Shown here piece after piece: positions 3,792 to 43,513 of a DNA stretch of 46,660 bases (position 1 is its first letter; every line of letters begins with the position of its first letter). Under the pieces are notes generated by a model. It was not told where the DNA came from and made no database searches. It saw nothing but the letters and a program-made list of their open reading frames with translations. Source of the DNA: Escherichia phage aalborv; sequence record NC_049829.1; one strand, written 5' to 3'. The translations under genes were made by a program, and so were the position numbers.

Positions 3792-4265
3792 ATGAAAGAA
3801 CAGCGAATCGCAGTATCAACTGGCAAGATTGACAAGCGCACAATTAATGGCAATAACGGAACCAGACGAGGCAAGGATAAGAAGAAACGCAAACGCCCTA
3901 CAGGATATTATGTACTAAAAGATGAAGTGCGCGCTGGGCTAAAAGCACGCCTTGACATCCTTATTGAGTATTACGGAAGTGTATCAGCAATGGCAAAACG
4001 TCTTAACGTTAGCCAGCAAACTGTAAATCAGTGGCGTGTTCGCGGTATGATTTCAGCCGCTGGCGCTCAAAAGGTGCATAACGATTACAAAAAGTATGGC
4101 TGTCAAGGCTATCGCGCTTCATTCTGCCGTCCAGATCTGCGATTTGATTCCAATGGAAAACCGCTCACAAAGAGATGTGATAAGCGTGAAATGTTGCGAG
4201 TGGTAAGAATGTCAGATTATGAACCTGGCGGATTCCTGTATAAACCTGAAAGCACTAATTGCTAA
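3792..4265 (+). CDS. helix-turn-helix DNA-binding protein (Cro/YdaS-like HTH), basic N-terminus
   Basis: 157 aa; HTH-like segment SVSAMAKRLNVSQQTVNQWRVRG; GGAGAA SD; followed by intrinsic terminator 4273..4310. Confidence 0.55.
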   Translation: MKEQRIAVSTGKIDKRTINGNNGTRRGKDKKKRKRPTGYYVLKDEVRAGLKARLDILIEYYGSVSAMAKRLNVSQQTVNQWRVRGMISAAGAQKVHNDYKKYGCQGYRASFCRPDLRFDSNGKPLTKRCDKREMLRVVRMSDYEPGGFLYKPESTNC

Positions 4266-5253: not shown

Positions 5254-5269
5254 ATGTCACTGCTACTTT

Positions 5270-5296
5270 TACCCCGCATTGCGGGTTTTTTTTTTG
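5270..5296 (+). terminator. intrinsic terminator after primase gene
   Basis: Stem CCCGC..GCGGG followed by run of 10 T. Confidence 0.6.
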
Positions 5297-5352
5297 CCTT
5301 AGCAAATGCTATTATCTGCATTGACATTAATATGCAACACGGGAGAAAACGC

Positions 5353-5979
5353 ATGGCAATTTACAGAACCGGACAAGCGTCAATGGACGCGCAAGGTTAT
5401 ATCACTGGATACGACACAAAATGGCGAGAGCAACTAACGCTCATTCGCCCTGGTGCAACAATCTTTTTCATTGATGCTCCATTTCAAGCGGCTGTGATCA
5501 GTGAAGTTATCAGCGATACACAAATCCGCGCCATCACAACTGGCGGCGCTGAAATTGGGCGAAGCAACTACATTATTTTGCTGCATGACTCAATAACTGT
5601 TGACGGCCTGGCGCAAGATGTTGCGGAAACGCTGCGTTACTATCAAAGCAAAGAAACTCAGATCGAGGAATCTATTGAATTTCTCAAAAACTTTGACCTA
5701 AAACAGTTGCAAGATCTGGCTAATCAGGGTAAAGGTGATGCAGAGAAAACAGCCAATGATCGTGCTGCTACTGAACAACTGAAAAACGACACTCAACAGA
5801 TAAAGGATTCTGCTGTTGCTGAAACAAACCAGATTAAAGCAGACACTAACGCATTCAAAGAGCAAAAGGCAAAAGTTGACAAGCAACAAGAGGAGATCGA
5901 AACACTTAAATCTGAAATTGCAGATCTCAAAGAGGCGGTGGCGGCGTTACTCGACAAGCCAACAACGCTGGAAAATTAA
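5353..5979 (+). CDS. hypothetical protein with C-terminal coiled coil
   Basis: Start trimmed to ATG 5353 (GGGAGA SD) because track N-terminus spans terminator 5270..5296; C-terminal heptad-like K/E/Q-rich region; followed by terminator 5996..6024. Confidence 0.5.
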   Translation: MAIYRTGQASMDAQGYITGYDTKWREQLTLIRPGATIFFIDAPFQAAVISEVISDTQIRAITTGGAEIGRSNYIILLHDSITVDGLAQDVAETLRYYQSKETQIEESIEFLKNFDLKQLQDLANQGKGDAEKTANDRAATEQLKNDTQQIKDSAVAETNQIKADTNAFKEQKAKVDKQQEEIETLKSEIADLKEAVAALLDKPTTLEN

Positions 5980-33233: not shown

Positions 33234-33638
33234 TTATTTCCCAGCATTTCGCGCAATCCCCTTGTACATGCCGTAAAGAACATTATCAGGCTTTTTGAAC
33301 TTGATCGCATTGCGCGCAAGTCGGCGCATACGTCGCGCATCGTATCGCGCTCGCTGAAATGGCATTTTCATTGTCTTAACATGGCAGCCGCGATGATCGC
33401 TGATTCGCTTAAGCTCAATCAAAACGCCTTGAGTTGCCTCTACGCAATAATGATCAAAGCCAAGTCGTCTAGTAATGATATAGCCATTCTTGATGCGTGG
33501 TCGGTTAAACTCTTTTAACGATCCGATATAGCGATCGGAAGCCGTTACAATCTCACCTTTACGAATGCCGCATCGCTCATCATATACCCAGGTTACAACA
33601 AATTTTGTGCCTACGCGGATTTTGTGAAGATCTAACAT
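33234..33638 (-). CDS. hypothetical basic protein (134 aa)
   Basis: Start moved to ATG 33638 (MLDLHKIRVG, AAAGGA SD) because track N-terminus lies upstream of promoter -10 (33669..33674). Confidence 0.5.
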   Translation of the reverse strand: MLDLHKIRVGTKFVVTWVYDERCGIRKGEIVTASDRYIGSLKEFNRPRIKNGYIITRRLGFDHYCVEATQGVLIELKRISDHRGCHVKTMKMPFQRARYDARRMRRLARNAIKFKKPDNVLYGMYKGIARNAGK

Positions 33639-33662
33639 GTTCAAGTCCTTTCGTTGATTGGT

Positions 33663-33714
33663 GTTTGCATTATAGCGAGGCATTGCGCCCCGCTTTTAGC
33701 AATTCGTGCTATTT
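33663..33714 (-). promoter_or_regulatory. motif-type promoter variant (AAATAGCACGAATTGCTAAAA), -10 TATAAT
   Basis: TTGCTA then 22-bp GC-rich inverted-repeat spacer then TATAAT (33669..33674). Confidence 0.5.
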
Positions 33715-34299
33715 GATCTTTGTGTGTTTCCACTGGACCGTTTTGATGATCTCGTCAACAGTCTTTTCTGGATCGCCATCAGTCATTGTGAAGTCGTAAT
33801 GCTTGGCGCGGTGATGGTATCCGCTCAGGTCAATATAGTTTCGTGAATCGCCATCAAACGTGAAGCCTTCGCGATGCAGTCGGCAAATGTGCACTTCATG
33901 GCCTGCCTTAACTAGCGGCTTGATTTCTTCAGGGAATCCGCCGTCACTAATTACAACAGCTAAATCTCTGTACATCTCGTGTACTTGCTCAACCATGCGA
34001 TTTCCGAAATATTGCTCGCCAAAAGCTGGCTTCATAACTTCTTCGCTAATCCAGATCATGAACTGGCGAGGCGACTTTCCTTGCAAGATTGCTTGGGGCT
34101 TTTCTTTCTGCTCGCGGTCGTTATACAGATTAATGAACTCGTCATATCGGTAAACGCCAAGCATGGAAAACGCAATATCAAACATAGGCTGTTTAAACGA
34201 CGCTTTAACGGCTGCGTAACGATGGCCCGTTAAGTATGCCGCAAGCGTATCCTTGCCAACTCCTGGCGGTCCGTTAAGGATGATAATGTCGCGTTTCAT
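33709..34299 (-). CDS. P-loop nucleotide kinase (dNMP kinase / polynucleotide kinase-like)
   Basis: Walker A GPPGVGKDT near N-terminus resembling T4 gp1 / Pnk kinase P-loops; stop TAG inside promoter motif. Confidence 0.55.
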   Translation of the reverse strand: MKRDIIILNGPPGVGKDTLAAYLTGHRYAAVKASFKQPMFDIAFSMLGVYRYDEFINLYNDREQKEKPQAILQGKSPRQFMIWISEEVMKPAFGEQYFGNRMVEQVHEMYRDLAVVISDGGFPEEIKPLVKAGHEVHICRLHREGFTFDGDSRNYIDLSGYHHRAKHYDFTMTDGDPEKTVDEIIKTVQWKHTKIK

Positions 34300-34301
34300 A
34301 T

Positions 34302-34418
34302 TTATTCACCTCTTGCTTTCAAGACAGTAATTTCTGTTGTCTCGCTTAAAACCTTGAAATTTCTATTCTCGCTTTTAATTGTCATATTGACAATCATAAC
34401 CCGACCGCGCTCTATCAT
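34302..34418 (-). CDS. micro-ORF (38 aa) translationally coupled to kinase gene
   Basis: Stop TAA immediately followed by kinase ATG; preceded by overlapping 30-codon ORF 34415..34507 (ATGA); weak SD. Confidence 0.25.
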   Translation of the reverse strand: MIERGRVMIVNMTIKSENRNFKVLSETTEITVLKARGE

Positions 34419-34517
34419 GTCGGCAAGCTCTCGAAGGTGACTTGCAGTTTTGGCAATCTCTTAGCTTTTTTCGTCAAATGGTGGCAATTGCATTTAGTTG
34501 TCTCCATGTCTGATTGT

Positions 34518-34568
34518 AGGCCTACTATACAGCAGGCCCGATAATCTGTTTTTGCAAAAAGTGCTATT
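34518..34568 (-). promoter_or_regulatory. motif-type promoter (variant AATAGCACTTTTTGCAAAAA), -10 TATAGT
   Basis: Motif 34549..34568; -10 at 34524..34529. Confidence 0.5.
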
Positions 34569-34743
34569 AAACAGAAAAATCATCATCATCTGGATCAATG
34601 GCCCAGGTGTCACCGTGGTCGTCGTACACAAAGTAATTGCCAGCACTCGACACATCGGCATGATAACGCTTTCCAGCGGTGAAACATTCGTTGACTTCCT
34701 CGCATTCACTACCCAGGAATTTAATCACTGTTGATTGCATCAT
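34567..34743 (-). CDS. small acidic protein (58 aa, C-terminus DPDDDDFSV)
   Basis: Not in track; GGAGG SD 9 nt upstream; stop TAA immediately precedes TAGCAC of promoter motif 34549..34568; preferred over track ORF 34494..34709, which reads through the motif. Confidence 0.45.
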   Translation of the reverse strand: MMQSTVIKFLGSECEEVNECFTAGKRYHADVSSAGNYFVYDDHGDTWAIDPDDDDFSV

Positions 34744-35362
34744 TTTTCAATTCCTCCACGCCGCAACGCAAACATTTACCATCAACCACACTAAAACAGT
34801 GCTCGCCTTCGCATTCGATTTTTGGCTTCAATTCATCCACGCCGTGCGATTGGATGTGATTATGTGGCTTGTCGTATTCCGTGACCTGATAGGTTGTGAT
34901 CCCCAGGCTGCGGAAGTGCTTAACCACGTTCGGCGAATCGTCAAAGGCGCAAACGATGTTCTCCAGGCCAATAGCTTGCAAGACTTCTTCTTTGATGATT
35001 GTATCTTTTCGATTGTCTTCCTTTCGGCGCATGATTAACGCGTCGTGCTTGATGCCGTTATAATTTAACCAGTCGCAGGTGTCAGCCATCACCTCATCGC
35101 TGCGTCCGGTCAGGATAACGATGGCAAATCCTGACATCCACAATCCGTTAACCACTGCAACCGTGCTCTTAATCGGCGAATCGCCAACAGCCGCTTTGTT
35201 GAACTCAGACCAGCTTTCTGTAAGGTGCAAATCTTCTGTCGGCAGCAGGTGCAAGCGATGCGTTCCATCTGATAACGTTCCGTCCAGATCAACAATAACA
35301 ATCGGCTTGCTCGTGGAAAAATGGTATTTGCTGCCAAAAAGTTCGAACTCGTATTTTTTCAT
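34721..35362 (-). CDS. HAD-superfamily phosphatase with C-terminal Cys4 zinc ribbon
   Basis: DxDGT motif (VIVDLDGTLSD) near N-terminus; C-terminal C-x3-C...C-x2-C. Confidence 0.6.
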   Translation of the reverse strand: MKKYEFELFGSKYHFSTSKPIVIVDLDGTLSDGTHRLHLLPTEDLHLTESWSEFNKAAVGDSPIKSTVAVVNGLWMSGFAIVILTGRSDEVMADTCDWLNYNGIKHDALIMRRKEDNRKDTIIKEEVLQAIGLENIVCAFDDSPNVVKHFRSLGITTYQVTEYDKPHNHIQSHGVDELKPKIECEGEHCFSVVDGKCLRCGVEELKNDAINSD

Positions 35363-35580: not shown

Positions 35581-35604
35581 CGTTTTATCTTCTTCATTGA
35601 AAGT

Positions 35605-35655
35605 GAGGCCATTATACCTGGCCCCACATTTGAGTTTTAACAAAAAGTGCTATTT
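35605..35655 (-). promoter_or_regulatory. motif-type promoter, -10 TATAAT in loop of GGCC..GGCC inverted repeat
   Basis: Motif 35636..35655; -10 35611..35616. Confidence 0.55.
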
Positions 35656-43120: not shown

Positions 43121-43513
43121 ATGTTTCTTCTGGATCTGTATCGCTGGTGTGAGTCATTCGAATGGTTTACACGTCAACATATAGCGAAATTTATATTTCA
43201 GCATAGAGAATGTGAGCGGCTCGCAAGGGCCGCAGGATTTACGCCGAGGATGTTTGCAACTGCCGTTTCAAAAGAATTTTGCTCAAGAATGATGACCGCT
43301 GGTTATCTTGATGGAGTTGGTGGAAAGTTCTGGTGTAAGAAAGGATCAGCAAATCGCCCTTTCTCGTTTGAACTTTACAGCCTGGAAGGTATGCAAAACG
43401 AATGGGTAAGAGATGTTTTACGGATCGGAGAAATGAGCGATGAAGAATTGTTTACGTCAAATGCTAATAGACAAAATATTGAAGTTCTGCGCCGTAAGTT
43501 CAATCTCACATGA
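43121..43513 (+). CDS. hypothetical early protein (130 aa)
   Basis: ORF track; GGGG SD. Confidence 0.5.
   Translation: MFLLDLYRWCESFEWFTRQHIAKFIFQHRECERLARAAGFTPRMFATAVSKEFCSRMMTAGYLDGVGGKFWCKKGSANRPFSFELYSLEGMQNEWVRDVLRIGEMSDEELFTSNANRQNIEVLRRKFNLT

What the first reader, a model, noticed from the sequence alone, without database searches (positions are those of the whole stretch)
33709..35362. Separate P-loop kinase and HAD phosphatase genes with coupled micro-ORFs between them
A T4 gp1/Pnk-like P-loop kinase (33709..34299) and a HAD phosphatase with DxDGT motif and an unusual C-terminal Cys4 ribbon (34721..35362) are separated by a motif promoter and a chain of overlapping small ORFs (34567..34743, 34415..34507, 34302..34418). 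Together they could form a split polynucleotide kinase-phosphatase (nucleic acid end-healing, for example against host anticodon nucleases) or a dNMP kinase plus nucleotidase pair.
Basis: inference. Interest (0 to 1): 0.5.

Follow-up and report, generated by a model that had tools for sequence, protein, structure and literature searches.

The report
T1-like phage phosphatase and dNMP kinase
This is the ordinary, already-annotated pair of early genes of T1-like coliphages: a stand-alone phosphatase related to the phosphatase half of T4 polynucleotide kinase, and a T4 gp1-type deoxynucleotide kinase. It is not a split polynucleotide kinase, and two of the three "micro-ORFs" between the genes are debris from one small gene broken by a stop codon.

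Summary
The window is a Hanrivervirus (Drexlerviridae, T1-like) genome. Both enzyme genes are real.

- **HAD protein (34721-35362, minus strand).** It is a stand-alone DxDxT phosphatase of the PNKP-phosphatase family (Pfam PF25109). All five catalytic residues are present, and its best fold matches are Pnkp1 and T4 Pnk.
- **Linkage.** The pair is tightly linked across T1-like phages, always with HAD upstream. It is already annotated in the literature (TLS Gp09/Gp14).
- **Repair pathway.** The window encodes no ligase and no tRNA.
- **Micro-ORFs.** The 30-aa and 38-aa ORFs are artefacts of a conserved 63-aa gene carrying a TAA at codon 11. The 58-aa ORF is real, and its domain is fused to the HAD in relatives.
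- **Cys4 tail.** It is an optional module in which only C..H..CxxC is conserved.
- **"Motif promoter".** It is the known TLS-type direct repeat.

The most likely role is nucleotide salvage from degraded host DNA. This is ordinary; interest is low.

The parts
35602..35653 (-). Promoter-like element: TLS-type direct repeat ATAGCACTTTTTGTTAAAA, a GC hairpin (GGGGCC...GGCCTC) around the hexamer, and TATAAT 21 nt after TTGTTA. It lies upstream of the 72-aa/HAD/58-aa module.
   Evidence: repeat described for phage TLS in PMC11447400
35362..35580 (-). 72-aa gene of unknown function (phrog_9122). Its TAA stop overlaps the HAD ATG by one base (TAATG), so the two are probably translationally coupled.
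   Evidence: annotated at this length in JakobBernoulli and morffagbaw
34721..35362 (-). Stand-alone HAD (DxDxT) phosphatase, 213 aa, PNKP-phosphatase family. Catalytic residues are D25, D27, T85, K124 and D142. It has a clade-specific conserved insert after motif I (about residues 30-63).
34724..34822 (-). Optional C-terminal tail of the HAD (residues 181-213) with a small zinc-knuckle-like motif: C184-x3-H188-C189 ... C197-x2-C200.
   Evidence: two short beta-hairpins in the AF2 model at pLDDT about 75
34567..34743 (-). 58-aa gene (phrog_11551) that overlaps the HAD 3' end by 23 nt in the +1 frame and has its own GGAGGA ribosome-binding site. The homologous domain is fused to the HAD C-terminus in 30 of 120 homologue clusters.
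   Evidence: 37% identity, E 6.5e-9 to the JakobBernoulli fused tail
34516..34567 (-). Promoter-like element: direct repeat ATAGCACTTTTTGCAAAAA, TATAGT 22 nt after TTGCAA, and a stem GGGCCT/AGGCC flanking the hexamer.
34302..34493 (-). Conserved 63-aa gene (JakobBernoulli bas07_0077) inactivated here by a TAA at codon 11 (34461-34463). It accounts for both the 30-aa and the 38-aa 'micro-ORFs'.
33709..34299 (-). T4 gp1-type deoxynucleoside monophosphate kinase, 196 aa. P-loop is G15-K16-D17-T18. Nucleotide contacts are R62, R78, M81, D119, E125 and R140.
33661..33712 (-). Promoter-like element (ATAGCACGAATTGCTAAAA, hairpin, TATAAT). Its TAG is the kinase stop codon. It lies upstream of the next gene (149 aa, 33234-33683).

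Best explanation
The locus holds two separate early enzymes of a T1-like phage that act on nucleotides, not a divided polynucleotide kinase-phosphatase.

**What the parts are (shown).**
- The 196-aa protein is a gp1-type dNMP kinase. It would convert dNMPs to dNDPs, and host nucleoside diphosphate kinase would then make dNTPs.
- The 213-aa protein is a stand-alone DxDxT phosphomonoesterase descended from the same stock as the 3'-phosphatase domain of T4 Pnkp.
- Family membership, fold, catalytic residues, gene linkage and promoter modules are all shown here.

**What they most likely do (inferred).**
- The phosphatase most likely removes 3'-phosphates from deoxynucleotides or short oligonucleotides (3'-dNMP, pdNp, 3'-P ends). 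These would be released when the phage degrades the host chromosome.
- The products can then enter the 5'-dNMP pool that the kinase charges.
- The phosphatase's substrate and the salvage pathway are inferred, not shown.

**Layout in this phage.**
- Each enzyme sits in its own promoter-defined module: DR@35653 to 72-aa, HAD, 58-aa; DR@34567 to broken 63-aa gene, kinase.
- In about half of related phages the two genes abut or overlap, with HAD first.
For: **Kinase**
- phrog_139 at E 3e-51. T4 gp1 falls in the same PHROG at E 1.8e-65.
- gp1 contact residues from PMC10653934 Table 2 map to invariant family residues: K14/D15/T16, R68, R132, M135, D175, E181 and R197 correspond to K16/D17/T18, R62, R78, M81, D119, E125 and R140.

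**HAD**
- D165/D167/S211/K258/D278 of T4 Pnkp (roles per PMC3592404) correspond to D25/D27/T85/K124/D142.
- T4 Pnkp phosphatase also hydrolyses the mononucleotide 3'-dTMP.

**Linkage**
- 78 of 80 HAD-anchored and 66 of 80 kinase-anchored viral loci hold both genes within the 4 kb fetched on each side, on the same strand, HAD always upstream. In 39 of the 78 the stop-to-stop reading frames overlap or abut.

**Context**
- T1 and TLS degrade host DNA and reuse the nucleotides. TLS Gp09/Gp14 are the same pair (PMC11447400).
- The KanT1 paper proposes nucleotide supply as the role (PMC13164509).
- A same-clade HAD in GEC-3S is coupled to nrdB inside the td-nrdA-nrdB cluster, while that phage keeps a separate PseT + RnlA.
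- No ligase or tRNA is encoded in the window.
Against: - No biochemical data exist for either protein of any T1-like phage, as far as the searched library shows.
- Two gp1 contacts are not conserved: K37 aligns with F40 and R177 with G121. Substrate range may therefore differ from gp1.
- The phosphatase fold and residues cannot separate mononucleotide substrates from polynucleotide 3' ends. T4 Pnkp does both.
- It is not known that host-DNA breakdown in T1-like infection produces 3'-phosphorylated products.
- The HAD model is only moderately confident (pLDDT 70.9; the conserved insert at 28-63 is below 50).
- In Erwinia phage VL73 a same-clade HAD sits near a DNA ligase, exonuclease and endonuclease VII without a gp1-type kinase directly downstream. 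That context is equally compatible with DNA end repair.
Confidence: 0.6

Rival explanations
1. The HAD works alone as a nucleic-acid 3'-end healing enzyme. It would remove 3'-phosphate or 2',3'-cyclic phosphate from nicked phage DNA or RNA so that host polymerase or ligase can act. The kinase would be an unrelated dNMP kinase that merely shares the early region.
For: - The closest solved relatives are the end-healing phosphatase domains of Pnkp1 and T4 Pnk, with an identical catalytic set.
- In Erwinia phage VL73 a same-clade HAD lies beside a 5'-3' exonuclease, endonuclease VII and an ATP-dependent DNA ligase.
- Optional zinc-knuckle and small-domain tails could be nucleic-acid-binding add-ons. 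That last point is inference.
Against: - The strict HAD-to-kinase order and frequent overlap across T1-like phages argue for a shared pathway.
- In GEC-3S the same-clade HAD is coupled to nrdB even though a full PseT exists in that genome.
- No phage ligase is encoded in the window.
- The clade has a conserved insert at the HAD cap position that T4 Pnk lacks. Caps usually go with small substrates; this is general knowledge of the HAD superfamily, used as inference.
Confidence: 0.2
2. Split Pnkp. The gp1-type kinase phosphorylates 5'-OH polynucleotide ends and the HAD removes 3'-phosphates. Together they would form a two-subunit analogue of T4 Pnkp that heals tRNA or DNA cut by host defence nucleases, with a host ligase sealing the break.
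For: - The tight gene pair is often translationally coupled, as expected for two halves of one activity.
- The HAD is a true Pnkp-phosphatase homologue.
- Both Pnk kinase and gp1 are P-loop kinases of the adenylate-kinase-like fold.
Against: - NMP-phosphate-binding arginines and base contacts of gp1 are conserved.
- The gene order is phosphatase then kinase, the reverse of the Pnkp domain order.
- No ligase or tRNA genes are present.
- E. coli RtcB seals 3'-P/5'-OH RNA ends directly, so removing the 3'-P would not help. This rests on established knowledge and was not tested here.
Confidence: 0.07
3. The HAD is a small-molecule phosphatase with a different target, for example a 5'-nucleotidase that trims or sanitises particular (d)NMPs, or a non-nucleotide phosphoester. 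It would tune pools rather than feed the kinase.
For: - There are secondary Pfam and fold matches to class B/C acid phosphatases and plant vegetative storage protein.
- A P1-like phage homologue is annotated 'acid phosphatase Pap'.
- The GEC-3S homologue is coupled to nrdB.
Against: - A 5'-dNMP phosphatase expressed together with a dNMP kinase would form a futile cycle.
- The best sequence and fold matches are consistently the Pnkp 3'-phosphatase domains.
Confidence: 0.12

Closest known systems
T4 gp1 deoxynucleoside monophosphate kinase (PDB 1DEK/1DEL; PHROG 139)
   Same: - Same PHROG family.
- Best structural match.
- GKDT P-loop variant.
- Conserved equivalents of R68, R132, M135, D175, E181 and R197.
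   Different: - 196 aa rather than 241 aa; it lacks a 36-residue insertion after the GKSP motif.
- gp1 K37 and R177 are not conserved (F40, G121).
- Only about 17% identical.
- The host phage has unmodified DNA, so specificity is probably for canonical dNMPs (inference).
3'-phosphatase domain of T4 polynucleotide kinase-phosphatase (PseT; PDB 1LTQ, 5UJ0) and of Capnocytophaga Pnkp1 (4XRP)
   Same: - DxDxT acylphosphatase fold.
- Pfam HAD_PNKP.
- All five catalytic or metal-binding residues present.
- 27-30% identity over the core.
   Different: - Stand-alone protein with no fused 5'-kinase domain, so the database label 'polynucleotide kinase' is a misnomer.
- It has an N-terminal beta-hairpin and a conserved insert of about 20 residues after motif I.
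- It carries optional C-terminal modules.
- No partner RNA ligase is encoded.
TLS Gp09 ('polynucleotide kinase') and Gp14 (dNMP kinase), and the same pair in T1, KanT1 and other Drexlerviridae
   Same: - Same two genes, in the same early region and the same order.
- Already annotated and discussed as nucleotide-supply genes (PMC11447400, PMC13164509).
- Window proteins are 95-98% identical to deposited Hanrivervirus proteins.
   Different: Only the small genes between them differ. This window has its own combination: a 58-aa gene and a nonsense-mutated 63-aa gene.
TLS 21-nt direct repeat aaATAGCACnnnTTGnTAAAA
   Same: Same consensus, intergenic, oriented with the genes, with 12 strict copies and up to 13 including a weaker one at 4251 in the window.
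   Different: I additionally see a -10-like hexamer at a fixed 21-22 nt and, in most copies, a GC-rich hairpin in between. The passages of the TLS paper that I read do not mention these.

Membership tests
T4 gp1-type dNMP kinase (PHROG 139 / 1DEK fold) | Significant match to the family profile that contains T4 gp1 | tested here: met
   The window kinase hits phrog_139 at E 3e-51. T4 gp1 hits the same profile at E 1.8e-65.
T4 gp1-type dNMP kinase (PHROG 139 / 1DEK fold) | Fold closest to 1DEK rather than to other P-loop kinases | tested here: met
T4 gp1-type dNMP kinase (PHROG 139 / 1DEK fold) | P-loop G-K-D-T plus dNMP-phosphate, sugar and base contacts (K37, R68, R132, R177, M135, D175, E181) and the ATP-base Arg197 | tested here: inconclusive
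   Conserved and invariant in the family: K16/D17/T18, R62, R78, M81, D119, E125, R140. Not conserved: K37 aligns with F40 and R177 with G121. The alignment is sequence-based (MAFFT), not structural.
T4 gp1-type dNMP kinase (PHROG 139 / 1DEK fold) | ATP-dependent phosphorylation of dNMPs | not testable with these tools
   Needs an enzyme assay.
T4 Pnk-type polynucleotide 5'-kinase domain | Homology to the Pnk kinase domain beyond the Walker A motif | tested here: not met
PNKP-type HAD (DxDxT) 3'-phosphatase domain (Pfam PF25109) | Score above Pfam's gathering threshold | tested here: met
   76.3 bits vs a cut-off of 27.6, E 3.5e-21.
PNKP-type HAD (DxDxT) 3'-phosphatase domain (Pfam PF25109) | Nucleophile Asp, acid-base Asp, phosphate-contact Ser/Thr and Lys, and Mg-binding Asp (T4 D165, D167, S211, K258, D278) | tested here: met
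   D25, D27, T85, K124 and D142 align with them and are invariant or nearly invariant in the family. Residue roles are from PMC3592404.
PNKP-type HAD (DxDxT) 3'-phosphatase domain (Pfam PF25109) | Fold closest to the Pnkp phosphatase domains | tested here: met
Bifunctional polynucleotide kinase-phosphatase (Pnkp), the label used in databases | 5'-kinase domain fused to the phosphatase domain | tested here: not met
   The protein is 213 aa. T4 Pnk residues 1-150 have no counterpart in the alignment, and Pfam finds only HAD-type domains.
Phage RNA repair (heal-and-seal) system, T4 PseT + Rnl type | A partner RNA ligase, and usually a tRNA-damage context, in the same genome | tested here: not met
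   No ligase among window ORFs of 220 aa or more. None is annotated in JakobBernoulli, and the word 'ligase' does not occur in the TLS paper. No tRNA genes.
Cys4 zinc ribbon | Four conserved Cys ligands in two knuckles | tested here: not met
   The window has C184, C189, C197 and C200. In homologues the second Cys is usually W or K, while H188 is conserved, giving the pattern C..H..CxxC. The tail is absent in 79 of 120 clusters. Metal binding is not testable here.
TLS-type 21-nt direct repeat (promoter-associated element of T1-like phages) | Consensus aaATAGCACnnnTTGnTAAAA, intergenic, multiple copies per genome | tested here: met
   There are 12 strict copies in the window, three of them at this locus. 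The consensus is from PMC11447400.

The most novel reading that the evidence does not exclude
The stand-alone HAD and the gp1-type kinase form a two-protein, non-orthologous analogue of Pnkp. The kinase would have been recruited to phosphorylate 5'-OH nucleic-acid ends. The optional zinc-knuckle and 58-aa-domain tails would target the phosphatase to broken DNA or RNA. T1-like phages could then heal damage inflicted by host defence nucleases using host ligases.
Probability: 0.07. Interest if true: 0.6.

Novelty: already known. Interest (0 to 1): 0.18.

Why it matters
It matters little as a discovery. The gene pair is present and annotated in well over a hundred T1-like phage genomes, and the literature already discusses it as a nucleotide-supply module.

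Three modest points have practical value.
- The widespread label 'polynucleotide kinase' for the HAD protein is wrong. It has only the phosphatase domain, and the neighbouring kinase is gp1-type, not Pnk-type.
- The enzymes behind the classical T1 host-DNA reutilisation phenotype are still unidentified. This conserved, often translationally coupled pair is a cheap and testable candidate for part of that pathway.
- The stand-alone HAD clade recurs in three phage families, with swappable C-terminal modules. Its substrate is an open but small question.

Tried and rejected
- **Pfam and NCBIfam on the kinase.** Only sub-threshold generic AAA/P-loop hits.
- **Sequence and profile searches of the PDB with the kinase.** Nothing beyond Walker A. 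The fold search was needed.
- **Canonical sigma-70 promoter for the intergenic motif.** The consensus scan does not find it. TTGCAA and TATAGT are 22 nt apart, too far for a standard -35/-10 pair. It is not unique to this locus either: the short repeat recurs 12 times, although the full 28-nt version is unique.
- **Known RNA family in the locus.** None at E up to 1.
- **Identity of the accessory pieces.** Pfam gave no significant family for the 58-aa domain as fused in P0122/P0124, the 72-aa protein or the 63-aa protein. The window's own 58-aa ORF gave only a weak DUF7244 hit (E 0.037). No dedicated search was run for the zinc-knuckle tail.
- **HAD-kinase fusion proteins as a Rosetta stone.** None among 160 loci; the smallest stop-to-stop frame gap is -109 nt, far short of a fusion.
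- **ORF after the HAD in Erwinia phage VL73.** It is not a gp1-type kinase.
- **Programmed frameshift joining the HAD to the 58-aa ORF.** Considered and rejected. The 58-aa ORF is in the +1 frame and has its own strong ribosome-binding site (GGAGGA, 8 nt before the ATG), and the site shows no good slippery heptamer (sequence reading).
- **Retron Eco2 paper.** It mentions PNK only as a reagent, so it is irrelevant.
Full report
**Source and layout**

The 3-kb region around the finding matches 168 phage records. The best are Hanrivervirus genomes (Drexlerviridae, T1-like) such as JakobBernoulli, SFP17 and aaroes, at 92-96% identity. All genes from about 33.2 to 36.9 kb lie on the minus strand.

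Relatives show the same order: a small 72-aa gene, the HAD gene, a variable set of small genes, the P-loop gene. Their annotations read 'polynucleotide kinase' or 'HAD' and 'P-loop NTPase / ATP-binding / dNMP kinase'.

**Checking the observation**

Both long ORFs are present at the stated coordinates.
- The kinase carries GPPGVGKDT.
- The HAD carries DLDGT (D25-D27-T29).
- The HAD C-terminus holds C184, C189, C197 and C200.
- The three small ORFs exist as open frames.

Two of those small ORFs are not genes. Aligning the inter-gene DNA with relatives and translating all frames shows a single 63-aa gene in relatives (JakobBernoulli bas07_0077). The window has the same gene at 34302-34493, with GAA changed to TAA at codon 11 (34461-34463).
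- The '38-aa ORF' is that gene's C-terminal part, starting at Met26.
- The '30-aa ORF' is an out-of-frame overlap that starts in the real gene's Shine-Dalgarno region.
- The gene is intact in all 23 other loci that carry it, down to about 39% identity, and always sits just upstream of the kinase.

So the apparent ATGA 'coupling' between the two micro-ORFs is an accident of a nonsense mutation or a sequencing error.

The 58-aa ORF (34567-34743) is real. It matches phrog_11551 at E 1.4e-12 and has a GGAGGA ribosome-binding site. Its domain is fused to the C-terminus of the HAD in JakobBernoulli and in 30 of the 120 closest homologue clusters.

**The kinase**

Pfam, NCBIfam and PDB sequence or profile searches see only the Walker A motif. 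PHROGs places the protein in phrog_139, 'deoxynucleoside monophosphate kinase', at E 3e-51. T4 gp1 itself scores E 1.8e-65 against the same profile.

An AlphaFold model built on 42 homologues is confident (pLDDT 91.4, pTM 0.85).
- T4 Pnk is not in the top 60.

Profile comparison with T4 Pnk aligns only 27 P-loop columns. Against gp1 it aligns 73 columns.

I then mapped the 1DEK contact residues tabulated in PMC10653934 through a MAFFT alignment.
- Invariant family residues align with the P-loop K14/D15/T16, the dNMP-phosphate arginines R68 and R132, the sugar contact M135, the base contacts D175 and E181, and the ATP-base R197.
- gp1 K37 and R177 are not conserved.
- gp1 has a 36-residue insertion that this family lacks.

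The protein is therefore a compact gp1-type nucleotide kinase.

**The phosphatase**

Pfam HAD_PNKP (PF25109) scores 76.3 bits against a cut-off of 27.6. phrog_415 scores E 2.7e-65. PDB sequence hits are Pnkp1 and the T4 Pnk phosphatase domain, and hhalign against T4 Pnk gives 95.9% probability.

The T4 residues whose roles are described in PMC3592404 are D165 (nucleophile), D167 (acid-base), S211 and K258 (phosphate contacts) and D278 (Mg). They align with D25, D27, T85, K124 and D142, all invariant or nearly so.

There is no kinase domain, so the common database name 'polynucleotide kinase' is a misnomer.

**The C-terminal tail**

The tail is modular. Of 120 homologue clusters:
- 79 end right after the core;
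- 30 carry the 58-aa-type domain;
- 12 carry a C..H..CxxC knuckle, and only 2 of these have four Cys as here;
- one carries both.

**Linkage and context**

I examined 160 viral loci fetched with either protein as the anchor.
- 78 of 80 HAD-anchored and 66 of 80 kinase-anchored loci contain both genes within the 4 kb fetched on each side.
- The two genes are always on the same strand, with the HAD upstream.
- In 39 of the 78 the stop-to-stop reading frames overlap or abut (the frame extends upstream of the true start codon). In the rest, 0.5-2 kb of small genes intervene.
- In Klebsiella phage Sweeny the two tblastn matches meet: the HAD match ends at 43128 and the kinase match starts at 43125.

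The cargo between the two genes is mosaic. SFP17 has the same HAD with the Cys4 tail but entirely different small genes.

The window has no ligase among its large ORFs and no tRNA genes. JakobBernoulli has no ligase annotated, and the TLS paper never uses the word 'ligase'.

Outside T1-like phages, same-clade HADs share the insert HRL..P..SW.E.N.A..GD.P.
- One occurs in the T4-like phage GEC-3S. It is translationally coupled to nrdB within the td-nrdA-nrdB cluster, although that genome also has a complete PseT and RnlA. The window HAD is 45% identical to that stand-alone HAD and 28% identical to the GEC-3S PseT.
- Another occurs in the T7-like Erwinia phage VL73, beside an exonuclease, endonuclease VII and a DNA ligase, with no gp1-type kinase directly downstream.

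**The 'motif promoter'**

The full 28-nt motif is unique in the window. Its first part, ATAGCACnnnTTGnnAAA, recurs 12 times, oriented with the genes. It matches the 21-nt direct repeat aaATAGCACnnnTTGnTAAAA reported at 21 sites in phage TLS (PMC11447400).

Three copies punctuate this locus, at 35653, 34567 and 33712. The last overlaps the kinase stop codon.

Every copy is followed by a -10-like hexamer 21-22 nt after TTGnnA. That is too far for a canonical -35/-10 pair, and the consensus scan misses it.

Eight of the 12 copies have a significantly stable GC hairpin in or around that spacer. Mean dG is -9.9 kcal/mol, against -4.1 for random 36-mers from the window. Orthologous copies of the 34567 element show compensatory stem changes. 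No Rfam family matches.

If these elements are promoters, the HAD and the kinase lie in adjacent but separate transcription modules in this phage.

**Mechanism**

Shown:
- a gp1-type nucleotide kinase;
- a catalytically complete Pnkp-type phosphatase without a kinase domain;
- strict HAD-to-kinase linkage;
- no phage ligase.

Established background:
- T1 and TLS degrade the host chromosome and reuse its nucleotides, and the enzymes responsible are unidentified (PMC11447400).
- The T4 Pnkp phosphatase also hydrolyses the mononucleotide 3'-dTMP (PMC3592404).

Inferred: the pair serves nucleotide salvage. The phosphatase would clear 3'-phosphates from breakdown products, and the kinase would raise 5'-dNMPs to dNDPs for host NDP kinase. 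I put this at about 0.6.

Rivals:
- the HAD as a lone DNA/RNA 3'-end healing enzyme (0.2);
- the HAD as another small-molecule phosphatase (0.12);

**Comparison and novelty**

The pair equals TLS Gp09/Gp14 and the 'PNK' and 'dNMP kinase' genes mapped in KanT1, phi2013 and T1. The KanT1 paper already interprets them as extending the replication module by improving nucleotide supply (PMC13164509). The window proteins are 95-98% identical to deposited ones.

Nothing here is new in kind. The corrections are:
- the mislabelled 'polynucleotide kinase';
- the pseudo-micro-ORFs;
- the non-conserved Cys4.

**Verdict**

Novelty: already known. Interest: about 0.18.

Noticed in passing
window + strand 9417, 20085, 37497, 38371, 38868, 40787; - strand 36116, 35653, 34567, 33712, 1254, 234: The TLS-type direct repeat ATAGCACnnnTTGnnAAA is always followed by a -10-like hexamer (TATAAT, CATAAT, TATAGT, TATATT or TACATT) at a fixed 21-22 nt. 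That spacing is too long for a normal sigma-70 -35/-10 pair. In 8 of 12 copies a GC-rich hairpin of varying sequence sits in or around the spacer (mean dG -9.9 vs -4.1 kcal/mol for random 36-mers). Orthologous copies in relatives show compensatory stem changes. The function is unexplained (unusual promoter architecture, operator, or processing site).
   Followed up: partly
window 33709-33712 and 34567-34569: The TAG or TAA inside or abutting the repeat's 'AATAGCAC' start serves as the stop codon of the upstream gene (the kinase at 33709-33711; the 58-aa gene's TAA at 34567-34569). Gene ends and the next regulatory element are therefore fused.
   Followed up: no
window 34721-34743 (HAD / 58-aa overlap); JakobBernoulli L001:3702-4415; protein P0122: The region just after the HAD core (about residue 180) is a recombination hotspot. 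Relatives end there, or add a zinc knuckle, or add the 58-aa-type domain as a fusion, or both. In the window the domain is a separate, overlapping +1-frame gene. The set of small genes between HAD and kinase differs even between 96%-identical phages such as SFP17.
   Followed up: yes
L167:4998-5474 (Enterobacteria phage GEC-3S): A stand-alone HAD of the same clade (45% identical, same conserved insert, DLDFT motif) overlaps the stop of nrdB in the td-nrdA-nrdB cluster. This T4-like phage also has a full PseT and RnlA, which suggests the clade has a nucleotide-metabolism role distinct from Pnkp.
   Followed up: partly
window 35173-35275 (HAD residues about 30-63): The segment after motif I (HRLHLLPTEDLHLTESWSEFNKAAVGDSP) is strongly conserved and nearly invariant across the family, yet AlphaFold predicts it at pLDDT below 50. 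It occupies the HAD cap position and is much shorter in T4 Pnk. It is probably a substrate-specificity element.
   Followed up: no
window 5254-5979 (+): The lateral tail fibre ORF next to the primase is only 241 aa and matches just the N-terminal part of tail-fibre families. JakobBernoulli's lateral tail fibre gene at the same place is 741 aa. The fibre may be truncated or replaced in this phage.
   Followed up: no
window 33234-33683 (-): The 149-aa gene immediately downstream of the kinase has no Pfam or PHROG match at all. The gene at the corresponding position in relatives is 133 aa, and phiE31-2 labels it an HNH endonuclease, a label that looks doubtful; I did not test whether the two are homologous.
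   Followed up: no
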